Positions 23,967 through 47,234 of a stretch of DNA of 64,000 bases are shown here, in pieces. Made by a program: the position numbers and the translations under genes. The DNA is taken from the NCBI RefSeq assembly GCF_035594765.1, contig NC_085844.1:163386107-163450106 (forward strand), written 5' to 3'. The notes under the pieces are model-generated. The model saw nothing but the letters and a program-made list of their open reading frames with translations, was not told where the DNA came from and searched no databases. Position 1 is the stretch's first letter. Every line of letters begins with the position of its first letter. The stretch comes from Anolis carolinensis (lineage: Eukaryota).

Positions 23967-24031
23967 TCAGAATTGGTCTGAAATGTTTGTTTAATCTGGT
24001 ATTGACTAACTCTTTTCTTATCATTGAACAG

Positions 24032-24294
24032 ACTTTCAACACAACGAATGTAACCAAGCTTTGCCCAGGGGCCCAGTGCACCTTTGCTTTCTATGGAGGA
24101 GAAAGCTTGTACCACAGATACATCTTAGTCTTTCAGATCTTCAATGTTTTTGTCTTTCTTTGGTTGGTCAATTTTGCAATTGCACTGGGTCAGTGTACCC
24201 TTGCTGGTGCCTTTGCCTCTTACTATTGGGCCTTTAGAAAACCTTCTGACATCCCAACATGCCCACTTTTTGCCTCATTTGGACGAGCAATACG
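24032..24294 (+). CDS. SLC44A5: SLC44A5 internal exon ([16 protein letters not shown]...[17 protein letters not shown]...FGRAIR)
   Basis: CAG acceptor, GTAAGT donor at 24295; phase 0/2; hallmark SLC44 motif [10 protein letters not shown]. Confidence 0.95.
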
Positions 24295-36207: not shown

Positions 36208-36292
36208 ACTGTCATTATAGGTTCTTACCTAGTTGCACATGGGTTCTTCAGTGTCTATGCAATGTGTGTTGACACACTTTTCCTCTGCTTTT
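36208..36292 (+). CDS. SLC44A5: SLC44A5 penultimate coding exon ([28 protein letters not shown])
   Basis: CTCTCAG acceptor, GTAAGT donor at 36293; phase 0/1. Confidence 0.95.
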
Positions 36293-39304: not shown

Positions 39305-39417
39305 GTGAAGACTTGGAAAGGAATGACGGATCGACAGCGAAACCCTACTACATGTCAGCTAGTCTGCACCGCATTTTGGGAAAGAAGGAACTGAGTCCAA
39401 AAAAGTTAATGGGATAA
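39305..39417 (+). CDS. SLC44A5: SLC44A5 proximal alternative last exon, coding part ([37 protein letters not shown])
   Basis: TTCAG acceptor; phase 1 matches the previous donor; stop TAA at 39415-39417. Confidence 0.93.
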
Positions 39418-40241: not shown

Positions 40242-40374
40242 CAGCCATGGGCAAACTTGGGCCCTCCAGGTGTTTTGGACTTCAACTCCAACAATTCCCA
40301 ACAGTGGTAGGCTGTTAGGAATTGTGGGAATTGAAGTCCAAAACACCTGGAGGGCCGAAGTTTGCCCATGCCTG
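40242..40374. mobile_element. Palindromic hAT MITE (CAGGCATGGGCAAACT-type); deleted copy at ~61353-61442
   Basis: Long inverted arms; flanks CTATATAG / CTATATTC. Confidence 0.85.
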
Positions 40375-40733
40375 CTATATTCAGATTAAACTTTAGCTCA
40401 ATTCAAAAAATCAAGCTCTATGGATGAATTATGATCCTTTTCTCTCCCCCACAAACCATGGAAGAAGTCCTTCCGGACTTTATAAACCAAGATACTGCTC
40501 TTTTATACACACATAGAAAGAGAATGAAATATGTGGGTCTGAAGATGCCTTTGAGCCTCCTTTGCACTATTCATGTAACATCTGATCATTTTTCATACAC
40601 ATGAGGAAGAACAAAGAGACATACGAAATACGAATCAGCATTCTGGCCAATTACCCATTGAAGCAAGAACCACTTCTGAGTCTCCTGTGAGAAAACACTC
40701 AGCAACTAAATAGCAAAACTCCGTGCTTTGAAT

Positions 40734-40985: not shown

Positions 40986-41114
40986 CAGTGGCTCTCAACC
41001 TCTGGGTCCCTAGATGTTTTTGGCCTTCAACTCCCCGAAATCTTAAAAGCTAGTAAACTAGTTGGGATTTCTGGGAATTGTAGGCCTCTGGGAATCCCAG
41101 GTTGAGAACCACTG
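40986..41114. mobile_element. hAT MITE (family of 2634-2768)
   Basis: TIRs present; TSD CTTTAAGG / CTTTAATG. Confidence 0.9.
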
Positions 41115-41517
41115 CTTTAATGATACAAGGGAGAATGTTTGCCTGGAAGTCATTTTATGAGATAAGTGAGATTTTTCAGCTGAATATATTGAGTTGGAGA
41201 GCTTACATCAATATGGAACTACAAAGGATTTGAGAAAAAAATAATCTGAAATAAAACGGACTATGCAATCAACTAAACAAATGCTTCAAGGAATAATGCA
41301 ACTTTTCACTATATTAATCTTCCTGTGATTGGATCACAATGTCTTCCCAGGGAAGTGTGCGAGGGAGGAGCTCCACACCCTTTAGATTATTATTATTTTT
41401 TGCTCTTCCTTCTGTCCCTTGTCTCATTCCACACCCTATATCCCCTGGATAGTTGTTCTGGGAATTGATAGATTTGCCATAAAAGCATGGGGAAAGCTGG
41501 TGTTGAAGTTGCTAGAG

Positions 41518-41640
41518 CAGTGGTTCCCAGCCTTTGGGCCTCTAGGTGTTTTGGACTTCAGCTCCCAGAAATCCCAACCAGCTTACCAGTTAGGAGCTGA
41601 AGTCCAAAACACCTGGAGGCCCAAAGGTTGGGAACCACTA
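41518..41640. mobile_element. hAT MITE (CAGTGGTTCCC variant)
   Basis: Perfect 8-bp TSD TGCTAGAG; palindromic body. Confidence 0.9.
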
Positions 41641-41982: not shown

Positions 41983-43015
41983 GTCTAGAAATATACAAAT
42001 TGTATATACTTATATATAACTCTAGAAATTTTAGTCAAAAATCAACCCAATAAACTTCAATTGACATATCTATGGGTCAATGGAATGACTGTACCTTAAC
42101 TCCTATTTTTTTTTAAAAGAATCACCCTTTCTCTGAGTAGAATGCTGAAAGATGGGATTTTAGTTCATCCTGAGAGAACCTAAAAGAAACACCAACCCCT
42201 TCTACTCTCTCTCTGTGGTGCTCTTGCTAGTCTTTTTTAAATGCCTGGGTGAAGAAATGGCAGCAGTAACCAAAGGCAGTTCGCCCCGAGACAGCATTGA
42301 CACTTTCCTCTCTGCAGAAGGATCTTTGATTTATCCTCTCTGTTGACATCCTCAAGATCCATACTTGCCTTTGACTTATACATGAGTATATACAGTAATG
42401 AAAAAATCCTTCCCTAATAGAAATAAGCAGTCATTTGTATGCTCTAGATGCCATGCATTGCGGTTACAGTCAAACTGTTCCGTGACAGCCAAATTATATT
42501 GTCCCAAATTCAGCTGCAGTTACAAGCAATTAGTTATGCCTATCAGCTGGTGGTCCTGGAAGCAGATGTGCTATGCCATCCAAAGATGCATCCAGCCACA
42601 TCATCAGAATTGCTCAGTTGGGTATCACTTTGTAGAAGGGGGAAGAGCTACACTGATACAATGTGCAGCGAAGATGTACGATGTACGGGGTTATGTAAAT
42701 ACTTCTCAAGGGAGTAGAATCCAATTCAACACTAAGAGTGAATGGAAATCAATCTTCCTGCCCACCCTTCTCTCTTGACATCCTTGGCATGCTCTCCAAA
42801 ATGCTCTGGAGGCTTGCAAGACTCTCCAGGTCAGATGTGGGGAGGTGGCAGAAAGTCCTATTGCATAATATCTTTCCATTTATGAGATGTTGGTTTTGGC
42901 CCACTATTGCAAGTTCCTTGGTTTTGGCCTCTGAATGAACCCCTTTCCTTCTTAAAAAAAATTGAATAATTTGAATAATGCAATTTATTGTATGCAAGAT
43001 TGAGTTTGTGTACAG

Positions 43016-43149
43016 CAGAATTTCTCAAACTGTTCTCCTCCAGATGTTTTGGATTTCAACTCCCACAATTCCTAACAGCTGGTAAGCTGTTTGGGATTCT
43101 GGGAGCTGAAGTCCAAAACTCATGGAGGAGCACAGTTTGAGAAACACTG
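43016..43149. mobile_element. Palindromic hAT MITE
   Basis: CAGAATTTCTCAAACT...AGTTTGAGAAACACTG; perfect TSD GTGTACAG. Confidence 0.9.
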
Positions 43150-43869
43150 GTGTACAGGATTGGGTTTGCCAGTGGTTGCTCCATCAGTATATCCCAAGGT
43201 ATGACCCTATGTTGGCAATACAGTTAAGATGCATTTGCAGAAATAATTAGAATCAGTATGAATAGGATTATCCATAGTCCTTTGAAGCAAACAATTTAGA
43301 GCCATGTTGTTGAATAAGCAACTGAAAAAAATGGAAAATGCAAAGCAATAGCACTGAAATTGGGTGGCTGTCCATTCAACCAAAACATAGCTGTTCAATT
43401 ATTGCAAAATCCAACAGACAAAATTCCTGAATATCTTTCTCAGAATTGAATTAGCATTGATTGATGTGCAAAGTTAGGTAATAATTTATTTTTGAAATAC
43501 AGAATCTTTTGGACTTGATTGGTGTATTTCTTAATGCCCAGCCAAATCCTGCTGTTTATTCTAATGTCAGTTTTATGCATAACATGCTTTAACATAAAGC
43601 TTGAAAAAAGATGCACTTCCTCGCTTTCGAGAAGTAGTGTAATGGACGAATCATTTCATGATGAGATGATAAATTTTAAATAGACTTTGATCCTGCACTC
43701 ATTCTAGTCAAGGACAAGACACATGTCTTTGCTTGAACAGGTGCAGCATCTGGTCCATATAATGTTAAAGGGCTGATTATATTATTGCATCAGTGTTTAC
43801 TGTATAACAAATGCCAAAACATACTGTATTTAATGCATACTGAGACTTTTGCTGTTGTGCACAAAAGGG

Positions 43870-43943
43870 CCAGCAGGGGGCAGTATTGTTTTCATGGTGC
43901 GTTGCTTTGACGACTTGCTTTCTGCCGTTCTGCCCCCTAGTGG
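43870..43943. promoter_or_regulatory. Inverted pair of CTCF-like motifs
   Basis: CCAGCAGGGGGCAG at 43870-43883 (+) and CCACTAGGGGGCAG at 43930-43943 (-); both fit CCASYAGRKGGCRS. Confidence 0.6.
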
Positions 43944-44047
43944 AAGATTTAGAAAGTCACGATGGCTCTCCTGCAAGACCTTATTACATGAGTAAATCTC
44001 TGCTGAAGATCTTGAACAAAAAGAACATGCAAACCAAGAAACAATAG
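43941..44047 (+). CDS. SLC44A5: SLC44A5 distal alternative last exon, coding part (L-EDLESHDGSPARPYYMSKSLLKILNKKNMQTKKQ*)
   Basis: CCCCCTAG acceptor; phase 1; 21 of 35 aa identical to the proximal last exon with no indels; stop TAG at 44045-44047. Absent from the ORF track. Confidence 0.9.
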
Positions 44048-45740
44048 AAAATACCCACTGTCCTGTCCACACAGTCCCATTTGGTTACAGCGCATTGTTT
44101 CTTCAGTATGTTATTGACCGTCAGCTTTTCTTTGTGCATGTTTTATACCAAAGCTATTGTACACGTGAAGCCATCAAAAATTGTTGTGAGATTGTTTTGA
44201 AAATTCCAGCAGAAATTGTAAAGGAAAAAAACCTCTCCCATGGGAGCATTTTTTAATATATATCTATCTACTGAAAGTTTCCTCCTTTTTTCCATTTTGC
44301 CTTTAATTCTTGTGGCTTCAATGTTTTGGAGTGACCGATTTAAAAGTGTTGGCTGCTTTAAAAATATATGGAAAAGATGTGGAATGTTCTACTGTTTCAG
44401 ATTATCTTCTAGGTGAGTGAACAGTTTTTTTAACAAAAAGAAGAATATGGAAATTTCCCTAGAAACAGAGTTTTTAAAAACACTTTTTCAGTTTAAGTTG
44501 TCATAGAATATATAAATGTTTCCAGATTGCATTTAATGTCTTATCAGTTTCCTAGCTTGTATGGTTGTGTGCTCCATGACAAAGTGCCTTACTGGCTATC
44601 AGTATGATGTTAACTAGCTTGGTTTTGAAGTTTACAAGCACCATTGAACCACAAACCTACCACTGCTTGCCATGAAAATATATTCAGCTTACTTGAAATT
44701 TATAGGCAGAAACCTGGCTCTTTGCCCTTCTATACATTTTTTTCCAGCTTCTGCATTTTCCTATAGGAAGCAGCAGAGAACAGCATTCTTTAGAGCAGGA
44801 GCTGTGCAAAGTGGAGGTTGGACTACAACTCCCATCAGTCCTAGCATGTGTTTGCTGTGGCAAAGAATGCTGAAAGCTGCAGTCTGGCAACTTTTAAAGA
44901 GGTACACTTTGCTCACCTTTATGCTTTATAGATGAGTTTGTGGCTATTGGGATTTTCTTAACAGTTATTTTTACTTCTGTCTAATTTATGCTGTAAGAAA
45001 ATTCAAGCTCTGTCTCTGCTGGCTCTCCATTTGGACACGTAGCACAATCTGCATTGAAGGTTATATCCACACTTTAGAATTATAGCAGTTCTATGTCACA
45101 TTAACTGCCATGACTCAATGCTTTGAAATTACGGGATTTGTAATTTTGTGAGACCCTGCTGTGTCAGAGCTCAGGTGCTACAACAAACTAAAGATTGCAG
45201 GACTCCATGCAATGGAGTAAAACTGCTATAAACATCAAGCAGCTGTTAGATTGAACAACAAGAATCAGCTATAATCTTGGAAACCCACTGCAGAGCTGCC
45301 ACCTTAAACTTTCAGAAAGATTGCTCCTTTCTGACTTTGCAAATGTTTGCTGAGTTTTTCTGTTTCTACAGGTGACAAAAGCCACTCTGTAGTTACAGGA
45401 ATGAATGTTATATTAATATCAATGCCAATTAAGCCCTGTTAGTATTAGTTCCTAAGTGCAAGTGGGTTTGCATTCCTTTGAAAATGGAAACACTTTTGCC
45501 TACATCACTCATCGTAACCACAATTAGCAATGACATTGAAGTCACCAAATGGCCAATCCATACAGAAGCCCCACTGGTTCAGTGGGTCTACTCTAATTTG
45601 AAGTAAGGACAGGACTCAGGTTGCAATAAGATAGGACTTGAGCATTTTATGCCTATGGGGCGAGTGTGGGCACCATTCCTATACGGATGAAATTCTTTTT
45701 CCAGATTAGTTTCAAGTGATATTGCAATAGTAAAATTGTT

Positions 45741-46809: not shown

Positions 46810-47234
46810 AATAAAACTAAGAACCTTGTGGCTTCTTCGGTTTTTGAGATGTGTAACTAATGGTACTAATATTAATCATTAATGCAGTCTGTTTGTTTGT
46901 TTTTGAGAAAGAGTCCATCAGCATTTCAAAGATATATTCATAAATTGCATGGTGGCAAAAAAAAAAAAAAGATCTGGTCAGTCTCCCCTATGATCACATT
47001 TTTATTTTATCAATGATTTTAGACTGTGTGGTTTAGTCAGGAGAGAGAAGTGCCCAAACCAAAATAATGTGAGCACACATCTGTCTGAGCTCTAAAACCG
47101 TTTATTTGCTTCTGCTGTGCAGAAATATTAGGAACATATTGTTGAAAATATCTTTTTAGAACTAAAATGTTTAATATTTAACACAATTTGTTGTTACTTA
47201 TTGTTTTACAACTCTTGGGGTTTGTTCTAATAAA
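46810..47234 (+). promoter_or_regulatory. Candidate distal polyadenylation signals (AATAAA at 46810-46815 and 47229-47234)
   Basis: Each follows U-rich UTR-like sequence and precedes a GU/U-rich stretch. Confidence 0.4.

What the first reader, a model, noticed from the sequence alone, without database searches (positions are those of the whole stretch)
43870..43943. Inverted CTCF-motif pair that overlaps, and could fold over, the 3' splice site of the distal last exon
Seen in sequence: CCAGCAGGGGGCAG (43870-43883) and CTGCCCCCTAGTGG (43930-43943) are reverse complements at 12 of 14 positions, 46 nt apart, in otherwise AT-rich non-repeat DNA. The second arm contains the pyrimidine tract, the acceptor AG (43939-43940) and the first exon bases; the two mismatches fall exactly on that AG. 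Established: both arms match the CTCF core CCASYAGRKGGCRS. Inference: this is a dual-use element. It could be a DNA-level CTCF/insulator or Pol II pause site at the gene 3' end, and/or an RNA stem (9 bp + 2x2 loop + 3 bp) that masks the splice site and biases last-exon choice. I am not aware of this being described.
Basis: partly seen in the sequence, partly recalled or inferred. Interest (0 to 1): 0.7.

Follow-up and report, generated by a model that had tools for sequence, protein, structure and literature searches.

The report
Ancient CTCF site, recent mirror copy
A CTCF-type DNA motif just before the far alternative last exon of the choline-transporter gene SLC44A5 is kept in reptile-like and mammal-like relatives and likely anchors a chromatin loop beside the LHX8 gene, while its mirror-image partner over the splice site is absent from those relatives, so the proposed hairpin is likely a recent add-on in this lizard, not an ancient splicing switch.

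Summary
The two arms are not equivalent. Seven unnamed ORFs that read from this intron into the orthologous exon report the DNA of other amniote-like species. All 7 keep the upstream arm (0-2 core mismatches at best, 73-75 nt before the Glu codon in 6 of 7, changes mostly at degenerate positions). None keeps the downstream arm as a CTCF core (at least 2 mismatches) or as a strong pairing partner (best duplex -10 to -17.5 versus -23.2 kcal/mol). Pairing ends at the motif edges, and the two mismatches sit on the motif's degenerate positions. Best reading: one old, forward-facing CTCF site acting on DNA, plus a lineage-specific mirror copy made by two changes in a pyrimidine tract already close to it. 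The hairpin is predicted to fold in this lizard, so a local splicing effect is not excluded. No ChIP, RNA reads or orthologue DNA were obtained. The scan had not noted this before.

The parts
43870..43883 (+). Upstream CTCF core (arm 1), forward, same direction as transcription, pointing towards LHX8; the conserved element
   Evidence: Exact core; flank score 2.5, reached by 1.2% of random positions; kept in 7 of 7 informative orthologous ORFs
43930..43943 (-). Downstream CTCF-core match (arm 2) made of pyrimidine tract, acceptor AG and first three exon bases; not a core in the orthologues seen
   Evidence: Exact core; flank score -1.4, reached by 70% of random positions; at least 2 mismatches (core positions 9 and 12) under any codon choice in orthologues
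43884..43929 (+). 46-nt spacer with 3 CpG and a candidate branch point (TTTGAC, A43910; inferred from recalled consensus)
   Evidence: 6 of 1130 46-nt tiles have 3 CpG, 5 of 60 control CTCF flanks have 3 or more; 11-18 forced mismatches against four in-frame orthologues
43707..43940 (+). Intron end that still aligns to a reptile-like orthologue over about 230 nt
   Evidence: Codon-aware alignment of P0245 to the window
43939..43940 (+). 3' splice site AG of the distal last exon
   Evidence: Phase and protein match; paralog exons also start AG|TGGA; no RNA reads obtained
43941..44047 (+). Coding part of the distal (Leu-type) last exon of SLC44A5; candidate AATAAA at 46810, 47229, 47399
39305..39417 (+). 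Coding part of the proximal (Cys-type) last exon; candidate poly(A) signals at 40385, 40734, 41250, 42049
36208..36292 (+). Shared penultimate exon

Best explanation
The upstream arm is an old CTCF motif, kept in reptile-like and mammal-like orthologues, that likely binds CTCF on DNA and likely serves as a loop anchor facing LHX8, while the downstream arm is likely a recent look-alike with no ancient role. Shown: motif, position, orientation, neighbours, and the pattern of conservation. Inferred: CTCF occupancy; stalling of cohesin arriving from the LHX8 side, which would bound the LHX8 enhancer landscape inside a larger domain; origin of arm 2. The acceptor context fixes TAG|TGG, so a plain pyrimidine tract already lay 2 changes from a reverse CTCF core; T>G at 43932 and T>C at 43935, with G instead of T at 43878 in arm 1, raise pairing from 10/14 to 12/14. 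These arose by drift or by one template-switch copy from arm 1, and changes over the AG would have been purged, which would explain why the mismatches sit there.
For: Arm 1 best-case core mismatches 0,0,1,1,1,1,2 in 7 orthologous ORFs versus 1 of 45 other ORFs with at most 1 and 8 of 45 with at most 2. Forced changes fall at core positions 9 (G/T), 8 (G/A), 13-14, 1 and once 12. Orthology is independent of arm 1: with it masked, these ORFs and their cluster mates fill 12 of the top 14 of 75 intron alignments. In four in-frame orthologues arm 1 has 1-3 forced mismatches against 11-18 in the spacer. Pairing stops at the core edges. Only these two exact cores in 424 kb around the locus, plus two 1-mismatch sites far away. 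LHX8 lies tail-to-tail about 23-38 kb downstream. In mouse neural crest all 75 local Lhx8 promoter contacts among 86 rows lie on the side away from Slc44a5 (PMC13376775 supplement). Three of the four other inverted core pairs examined pair beyond the cores, which points to local inverted copying as a common source.
Against: No ChIP, ATAC or Hi-C for this lizard. The search query contained the intron translation, which favours in-frame carriers of arm 1 (three of the seven are in other frames). In mouse one interval, chr3:153.9-154.6 Mb, spans both genes (PMC10497529 file 8, read as a TAD list) and Lhx8 contacts the Slc44a5 promoter at -356 kb, so this is no strong boundary there. All three lizard-specific arm changes improve pairing, which drift alone makes unlikely for any one locus. 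Neither arm shows the upstream TGCAG module at the offset seen in controls.
Confidence: 0.62

Rival explanations
1. The conserved motif is kept mainly as a transcription checkpoint: Pol II slows at the forward motif just before the distal acceptor is made, giving the proximal exon and its poly(A) site time to be used.
For: The site lies between the candidate proximal and distal poly(A) signals, at near-constant distance from the acceptor although the spacer diverges. Forward motifs stall Pol II even without CTCF (PMC7999233 passages). CTCF between poly(A) sites favours the proximal isoform (PMC12162027 passages).
Against: The paralog with the same two last exons has no core within 2 mismatches near its distal exon (L009). 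The cores have no CpG, so the methylation switch of the known cases is missing. SLC44A5 was not found in the 3 supplement files of PMC12162027. Acute CTCF loss changed elongation little.
Confidence: 0.17
2. In this lineage the pair works as an RNA hairpin that hides the pyrimidine tract and lowers use of the distal exon.
For: Stem pair probability 0.38-1.0 across six contexts, tract mostly paired. In short co-transcriptional windows opening the acceptor costs 11.5 kcal/mol against at most 8.1 for 11 other acceptors, and about 5 when arm 1 is replaced. z = -2.6 for the 74 nt alone. A U.U mismatch in four in-frame orthologues is a G-C pair here.
Against: z falls to -0.9 and -0.2 with 10-20 nt of flank. 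In a 160-nt window the cost is 7.6, inside the range of the gene's other acceptors (1.8-8.6) and of 31 homologous acceptors (mean 6.6, max 11.8); shuffled arm 1 does as well in 46 of 100. The short windows were chosen to fit the stem. The two-exon switch is vertebrate-wide (PMC4494069 table row) but the stem is not. No Rfam match at the element.
Confidence: 0.11
3. Arm 2 was selected in this lineage as a second, opposite-facing CTCF site, giving a two-way anchor.
For: Both changes in arm 2 restore core positions. Several motifs in one peak add to binding and mark strong boundaries (PMC10497529 section 7). Close core pairs are enriched genome-wide.
Against: Arm 2 flanks score like random DNA. 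Only 2 of 60 control cores have a second core within 150 bp. Most close tandem pairs are minisatellite arrays, so they are a poor control.
Confidence: 0.1

Closest known systems
Intragenic CTCF sites between alternative poly(A) sites (CTCF/cohesin roadblock, e.g. DNAJB6; PMC12162027, PMC8373115, passages seen)
   Same: CTCF motif between a proximal and a distal 3' end of one gene.
   Different: No CpG in the cores, no CpG island; binding, looping and isoform effect untested here.
CD45 exon 5 CTCF roadblock (as described in PMC8373115)
   Same: CTCF motif next to an alternative splice site.
   Different: There the site is in the exon, downstream of the weak acceptor and promotes inclusion; here the conserved motif is 57-70 nt upstream of the acceptor of a terminal exon.
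Multi-motif CTCF binding sites at domain boundaries (PMC10497529, section 7 and file 8 seen)
   Same: Two motifs within one peak width, next to a developmental transcription factor gene.
   Different: Only one motif is conserved; the mouse interval list puts no boundary here.
RNA pairings that control mutually exclusive 3' exons (Drosophila PGRP-LC, via passages of PMC9013439)
   Same: Duplicated last exons with a predicted stem at a splice site.
   Different: Those pairings are conserved and competing; this stem is local and absent from the orthologues seen.
SLC44A2/SLC44A5 homologous 3' exons (PMC4494069, table row seen)
   Same: This is that known exon pair.
   Different: The row says nothing on regulation.

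Membership tests
Vertebrate CTCF binding site (arm 1) | Match to the core motif | tested here: met
   Exact match to the consensus given in the finding, which is about 40-fold enriched over its reversed control in this genome; no JASPAR matrix was available
Vertebrate CTCF binding site (arm 1) | Conservation with change at degenerate positions | tested here: met
   7 of 7 informative orthologous ORFs, protein-level inference
Vertebrate CTCF binding site (arm 1) | CTCF occupancy in vivo | not testable with these tools
   No ChIP data reached; the mouse peak table of PMC10497529 was too large to read
Vertebrate CTCF binding site (arm 2) | Match to the core motif | tested here: met
   Exact match; flanks like random DNA
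Vertebrate CTCF binding site (arm 2) | Conservation of the motif | tested here: not met
   At least 2-3 mismatches in 7 of 7 orthologous ORFs
TAD boundary | Insulation at the orthologous position | tested here: inconclusive
   Mouse ESC interval spans both genes; Lhx8 local contacts are one-sided, 75 of 75; nothing for lizard
Conserved splice-regulating RNA stem | Both arms conserved with compensatory change | tested here: not met
   Longest possible run 3-6 bp and best duplex -10 to -17.5 kcal/mol in orthologues versus 9 bp and -23.2
Conserved splice-regulating RNA stem | Predicted to fold over splice signals | tested here: met
   Pair probability 0.38-1.0, tract paired, A of AG mostly free
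Conserved splice-regulating RNA stem | Pairing changes exon choice | not testable with these tools
   Needs a minigene
Methylation-switched CTCF control of poly(A) choice | CpG within the motif or a CpG island between poly(A) sites | tested here: not met
   No CpG in either core; 3 CpG in the spacer only; no CpG-rich 500-nt tile nearby
Transposon terminal inverted repeats | Dispersed copies of the element | tested here: not met
   One match in the genome for 43800-44100; the other convergent pairs have unrelated spacers

The most novel reading that the evidence does not exclude
An amniote-old CTCF DNA site was re-used in anoles as the 5' arm of an RNA hairpin: three substitutions, perhaps one template-switch event trimmed by selection on the AG, turned the splice acceptor into its mirror image, so one 74-bp stretch both anchors chromatin beside LHX8 and sets SLC44A5 last-exon choice.
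Probability: 0.12. Interest if true: 0.65.

Novelty: new member of a known kind. Interest (0 to 1): 0.3.

Why it matters
The conserved motif is a precise, editable site to ask whether an intragenic CTCF site is kept for chromatin folding of a neighbour (LHX8) or for choosing between two ancient last exons. The mirror copy shows a general trap: any acceptor followed by TGG with a C-rich tract resembles a reverse CTCF core, and two opposed cores pair for free. If the hairpin did act in anoles, it would be a dated case of a DNA protein-binding site giving rise to an RNA switch.

Tried and rejected
Sequencing runs: one search with a PacBio filter, none was listed, so no reads were laid; this says nothing on expression. 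Metagenome scan for the acceptor pattern: 43 loci, mostly invertebrate-like and fish-paralog-like exons, none recognisable as amniote SLC44A5, none with the pair. Paralogs in the own genome: no core within 2 mismatches at their distal acceptors. Fish-like and newt-like ORFs P0335, P0351, P0268: no arm 1 detectable (3 or more mismatches), the last too short to judge. ADAR idea (acceptor A opposite C in UAG): untested, set aside because the stem is short and not conserved. Transposon TIR: rejected. Rfam: 4 weak hits below gathering score, none on the element. Tandem pairs as an orientation control: weak, most of the 78 matches are arrays. Literature: no paper on this element in searches for SLC44A5+CTCF (12 listed), SLC44A5+alternative last exon (0); listings only. 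SLC44A5 not found in the 5 readable supplements of PMC8052449, but its 3 large tables could not be read and may bear on this. PMC3415389 and bioRxiv 10.64898/2026.10.19.759930 passages and the PMC7760686 abstract added nothing. Earlier scan notes: nothing on this locus or this kind of pair.

Full report
Observation. The two 14-mers are at 43870-43883 and 43930-43943, pair at 12 of 14 positions and are 46 nt apart. Both match the consensus CCASYAGRKGGCRS exactly and are the only exact matches in the window. I used this consensus as given in the finding; no JASPAR matrix was available. The motif is real in this genome: 2280 and 2248 matches per strand against 62 and 46 for the reversed control.

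Gene context. An exon at 24029-24292 is 99% identical to Anolis carolinensis SLC44A5. The penultimate exon ends at 36292 in phase 1 and can join a proximal last exon (acceptor 39303-04, [11 protein letters not shown]) or a distal one (acceptor 43939-40, Leu-EDLESHDG). Both tails occur from fishes to turtles among the 120 listed homologues; the exon pair is listed as vertebrate-old for SLC44A2 and SLC44A5 in PMC4494069 (table row). LHX8 lies tail-to-tail about 23-38 kb past the element. In 424 kb around the locus the pair are the only exact cores; two 1-mismatch sites lie over 140 kb away.

Is the pairing special? Inverted repeats of at least 12/14 are common, 45 axes in 52 kb. Among 60 control cores (chosen by me from the first 100 of 4528 listed, leaving out two abundant repeat-like variants) 46% of pairs differ at 2 or fewer positions, so two opposed cores pair this well about half the time. 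The two mismatches are core positions 4 and 5, the degenerate S and Y. Pairing stops at the core edges. Close pairs are rare but enriched: 3 convergent, 3 tandem and 1 divergent at 36-56 nt against about 0.06, 0.12 and 0.06 by my arithmetic. With a 12-nt core there are 4 convergent loci, 1 divergent and 78 tandem matches, most in arrays. Three of the four other inverted pairs pair beyond the cores.

RNA level. The stem is predicted with probability 0.38-1.0 in six contexts; it pairs the pyrimidine tract, and A43939 stays free in five. z is -2.6 for the 74 nt alone, -0.9 and -0.2 with flanks. Opening the acceptor costs 7.6 kcal/mol in a 160-nt window, within the range of the gene's 11 other acceptors (1.8-8.6) and of 31 homologous acceptors (mean 6.6), and shuffled arm 1 does as well in 46 of 100. 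In short windows fitted to the stem it costs 11.3-11.5 against at most 8.1, and arm 1 supplies about 6 of that. The hairpin can form; nothing shows that it matters.

Conservation, the key test. Orthologue DNA could not be had directly. But the intron end is open in frame with the exon for 33 codons, and gene callers on raw contigs produce such read-through ORFs. Searches with this 67-residue frame found 2 hits and 160, of which 150 were listed. Of 151 sequences examined, 53 were unspliced-looking with at least 26 residues before the exon: the query, 7 SLC44A5 distal-exon orthologues and 45 others. Four are nearest to Anolis or tortoise exons and three to whale or sheep, the last (P0271) weakly. 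With arm 1 masked, these and their cluster mates take 12 of the top 14 of 75 intron alignments, and P0245 aligns over about 230 intronic nt.

Arm 1 is kept in all 7: best-case core mismatches 0, 0, 1, 1, 1, 1, 2, at 73-75 nt from the Glu codon in six and 62 in one. Of the 45 others, 1 reaches at most 1 mismatch and 8 at most 2, at scattered distances. Codon-forced changes are mostly the ones CTCF sites allow: G to T at position 9, G to A at 8, changes at 13-14 and 1, and once A at 12. Arm 2 is lost in all 7: at least 2 mismatches, at core positions 9 and 12 in the typical F-F-L-L-V form. The best possible arm-arm duplex is -10.0 to -17.5 kcal/mol against -23.2 here, the longest possible run 3-6 bp against 9. 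One snake-like ORF could reach 12/14 under its most favourable codons, with a run of 5.

Mechanism. Arm 1 behaves as a protein-binding site under selection: motif kept, spacer diverged (1-3 against 11-18 forced mismatches), good flanks, and retained CpGs beside it (3 in 46 nt; 6 of 1130 tiles), which would fit low methylation at a bound site (inference). It points towards LHX8. In mouse neural crest all 75 local Lhx8 promoter contacts among 86 rows lie 12-253 kb on the far side (PMC13376775 supplement), which fits an anchor on the Slc44a5 side. Against a strong boundary, one mouse interval spans both genes (PMC10497529 file 8, headerless, read as TADs) and Lhx8 contacts the Slc44a5 promoter. 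I therefore favour an intra-domain loop anchor. A pause role is the main rival: forward motifs stall Pol II even without CTCF (PMC7999233 passages) and CTCF between poly(A) sites favours the proximal one (PMC12162027 passages); the paralog with the same exon pair lacks the motif.

Origin of arm 2. Splicing and coding fix TAG|TGG, and a pyrimidine tract supplies most of the rest, so the inferred older state was already 10/14 complementary. T to G at 43932 and T to C at 43935, with G at 43878, complete it. Drift plus ascertainment can give this. So can one template-switch copy from arm 1 (mechanism recalled, not from a call), with copies over the AG removed by selection; the other inverted pairs in the genome suggest that such copying happens. 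Selection for a hairpin or for a second CTCF site is not excluded, since all three changes improve pairing.

Comparison and verdict. It works like an intragenic CTCF site at a gene's 3' end and meets the motif and conservation tests for arm 1; occupancy is untested. It fails the defining test of a conserved splice-regulating stem. I found no paper on this element in ten searches of the held library (listings only), and large supplementary tables that could list it were unreadable. New member of a known kind; interest 0.3. The dual-use reading survives as a lineage-specific possibility at about 0.12.

Noticed in passing
L136:545-1974 (G000:C9:34.057 Mb): Minisatellite of 69 bp, 20.7 copies, each unit with a CTCF core; next to it a 78-bp array with a core-like motif facing the other way.
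   Followed up: partly
L135:604-1555 (G000:C11:27.947 Mb); also C9:3.92 Mb, C24:378-383 kb, C24:902-908 kb: Further CTCF-core tandem arrays with different units (53 bp and others) on small contigs: repeated, independent amplification of CTCF motifs.
   Followed up: partly
L002:1501-1575; L133:1001-1068; L134: Other inverted CTCF-core pairs whose pairing extends past the cores, 25 bp perfect in L002; likely local inverted duplications.
   Followed up: partly
L053:2969-9076 and L054:7939, minus strand: LHX8 exons tail-to-tail with SLC44A5, with CpG-rich stretches at its 5' end.
   Followed up: yes
window 43009-43156: 148-bp hairpin, 72-nt arms, 83% complementary, resembling short dispersed elements seen at 40250-40370, 40990-41115 and 41510-41640; likely a MITE.
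   Followed up: no
L008 and L009 (G000:C2:191.76 Mb): Paralog with the same two last exons 7 kb apart; a partial motif TAGAGGGCAG lies about 130 nt before its distal exon, 3 mismatches from the core.
   Followed up: partly
L023 and L013: Fish-like paralog exons with 1-mismatch cores 351 nt upstream and 115 nt downstream of the exon start; not shared by similar loci L038 and L049.
   Followed up: no
window 11029 and 11057: Two degenerate cores (2 mismatches each) facing each other about 30 nt apart at the end of a CpG-rich repeat.
   Followed up: no
method: Read-through ORFs called on raw contigs can report intron sequence of orthologues when no genome alignment is at hand.
   Followed up: yes
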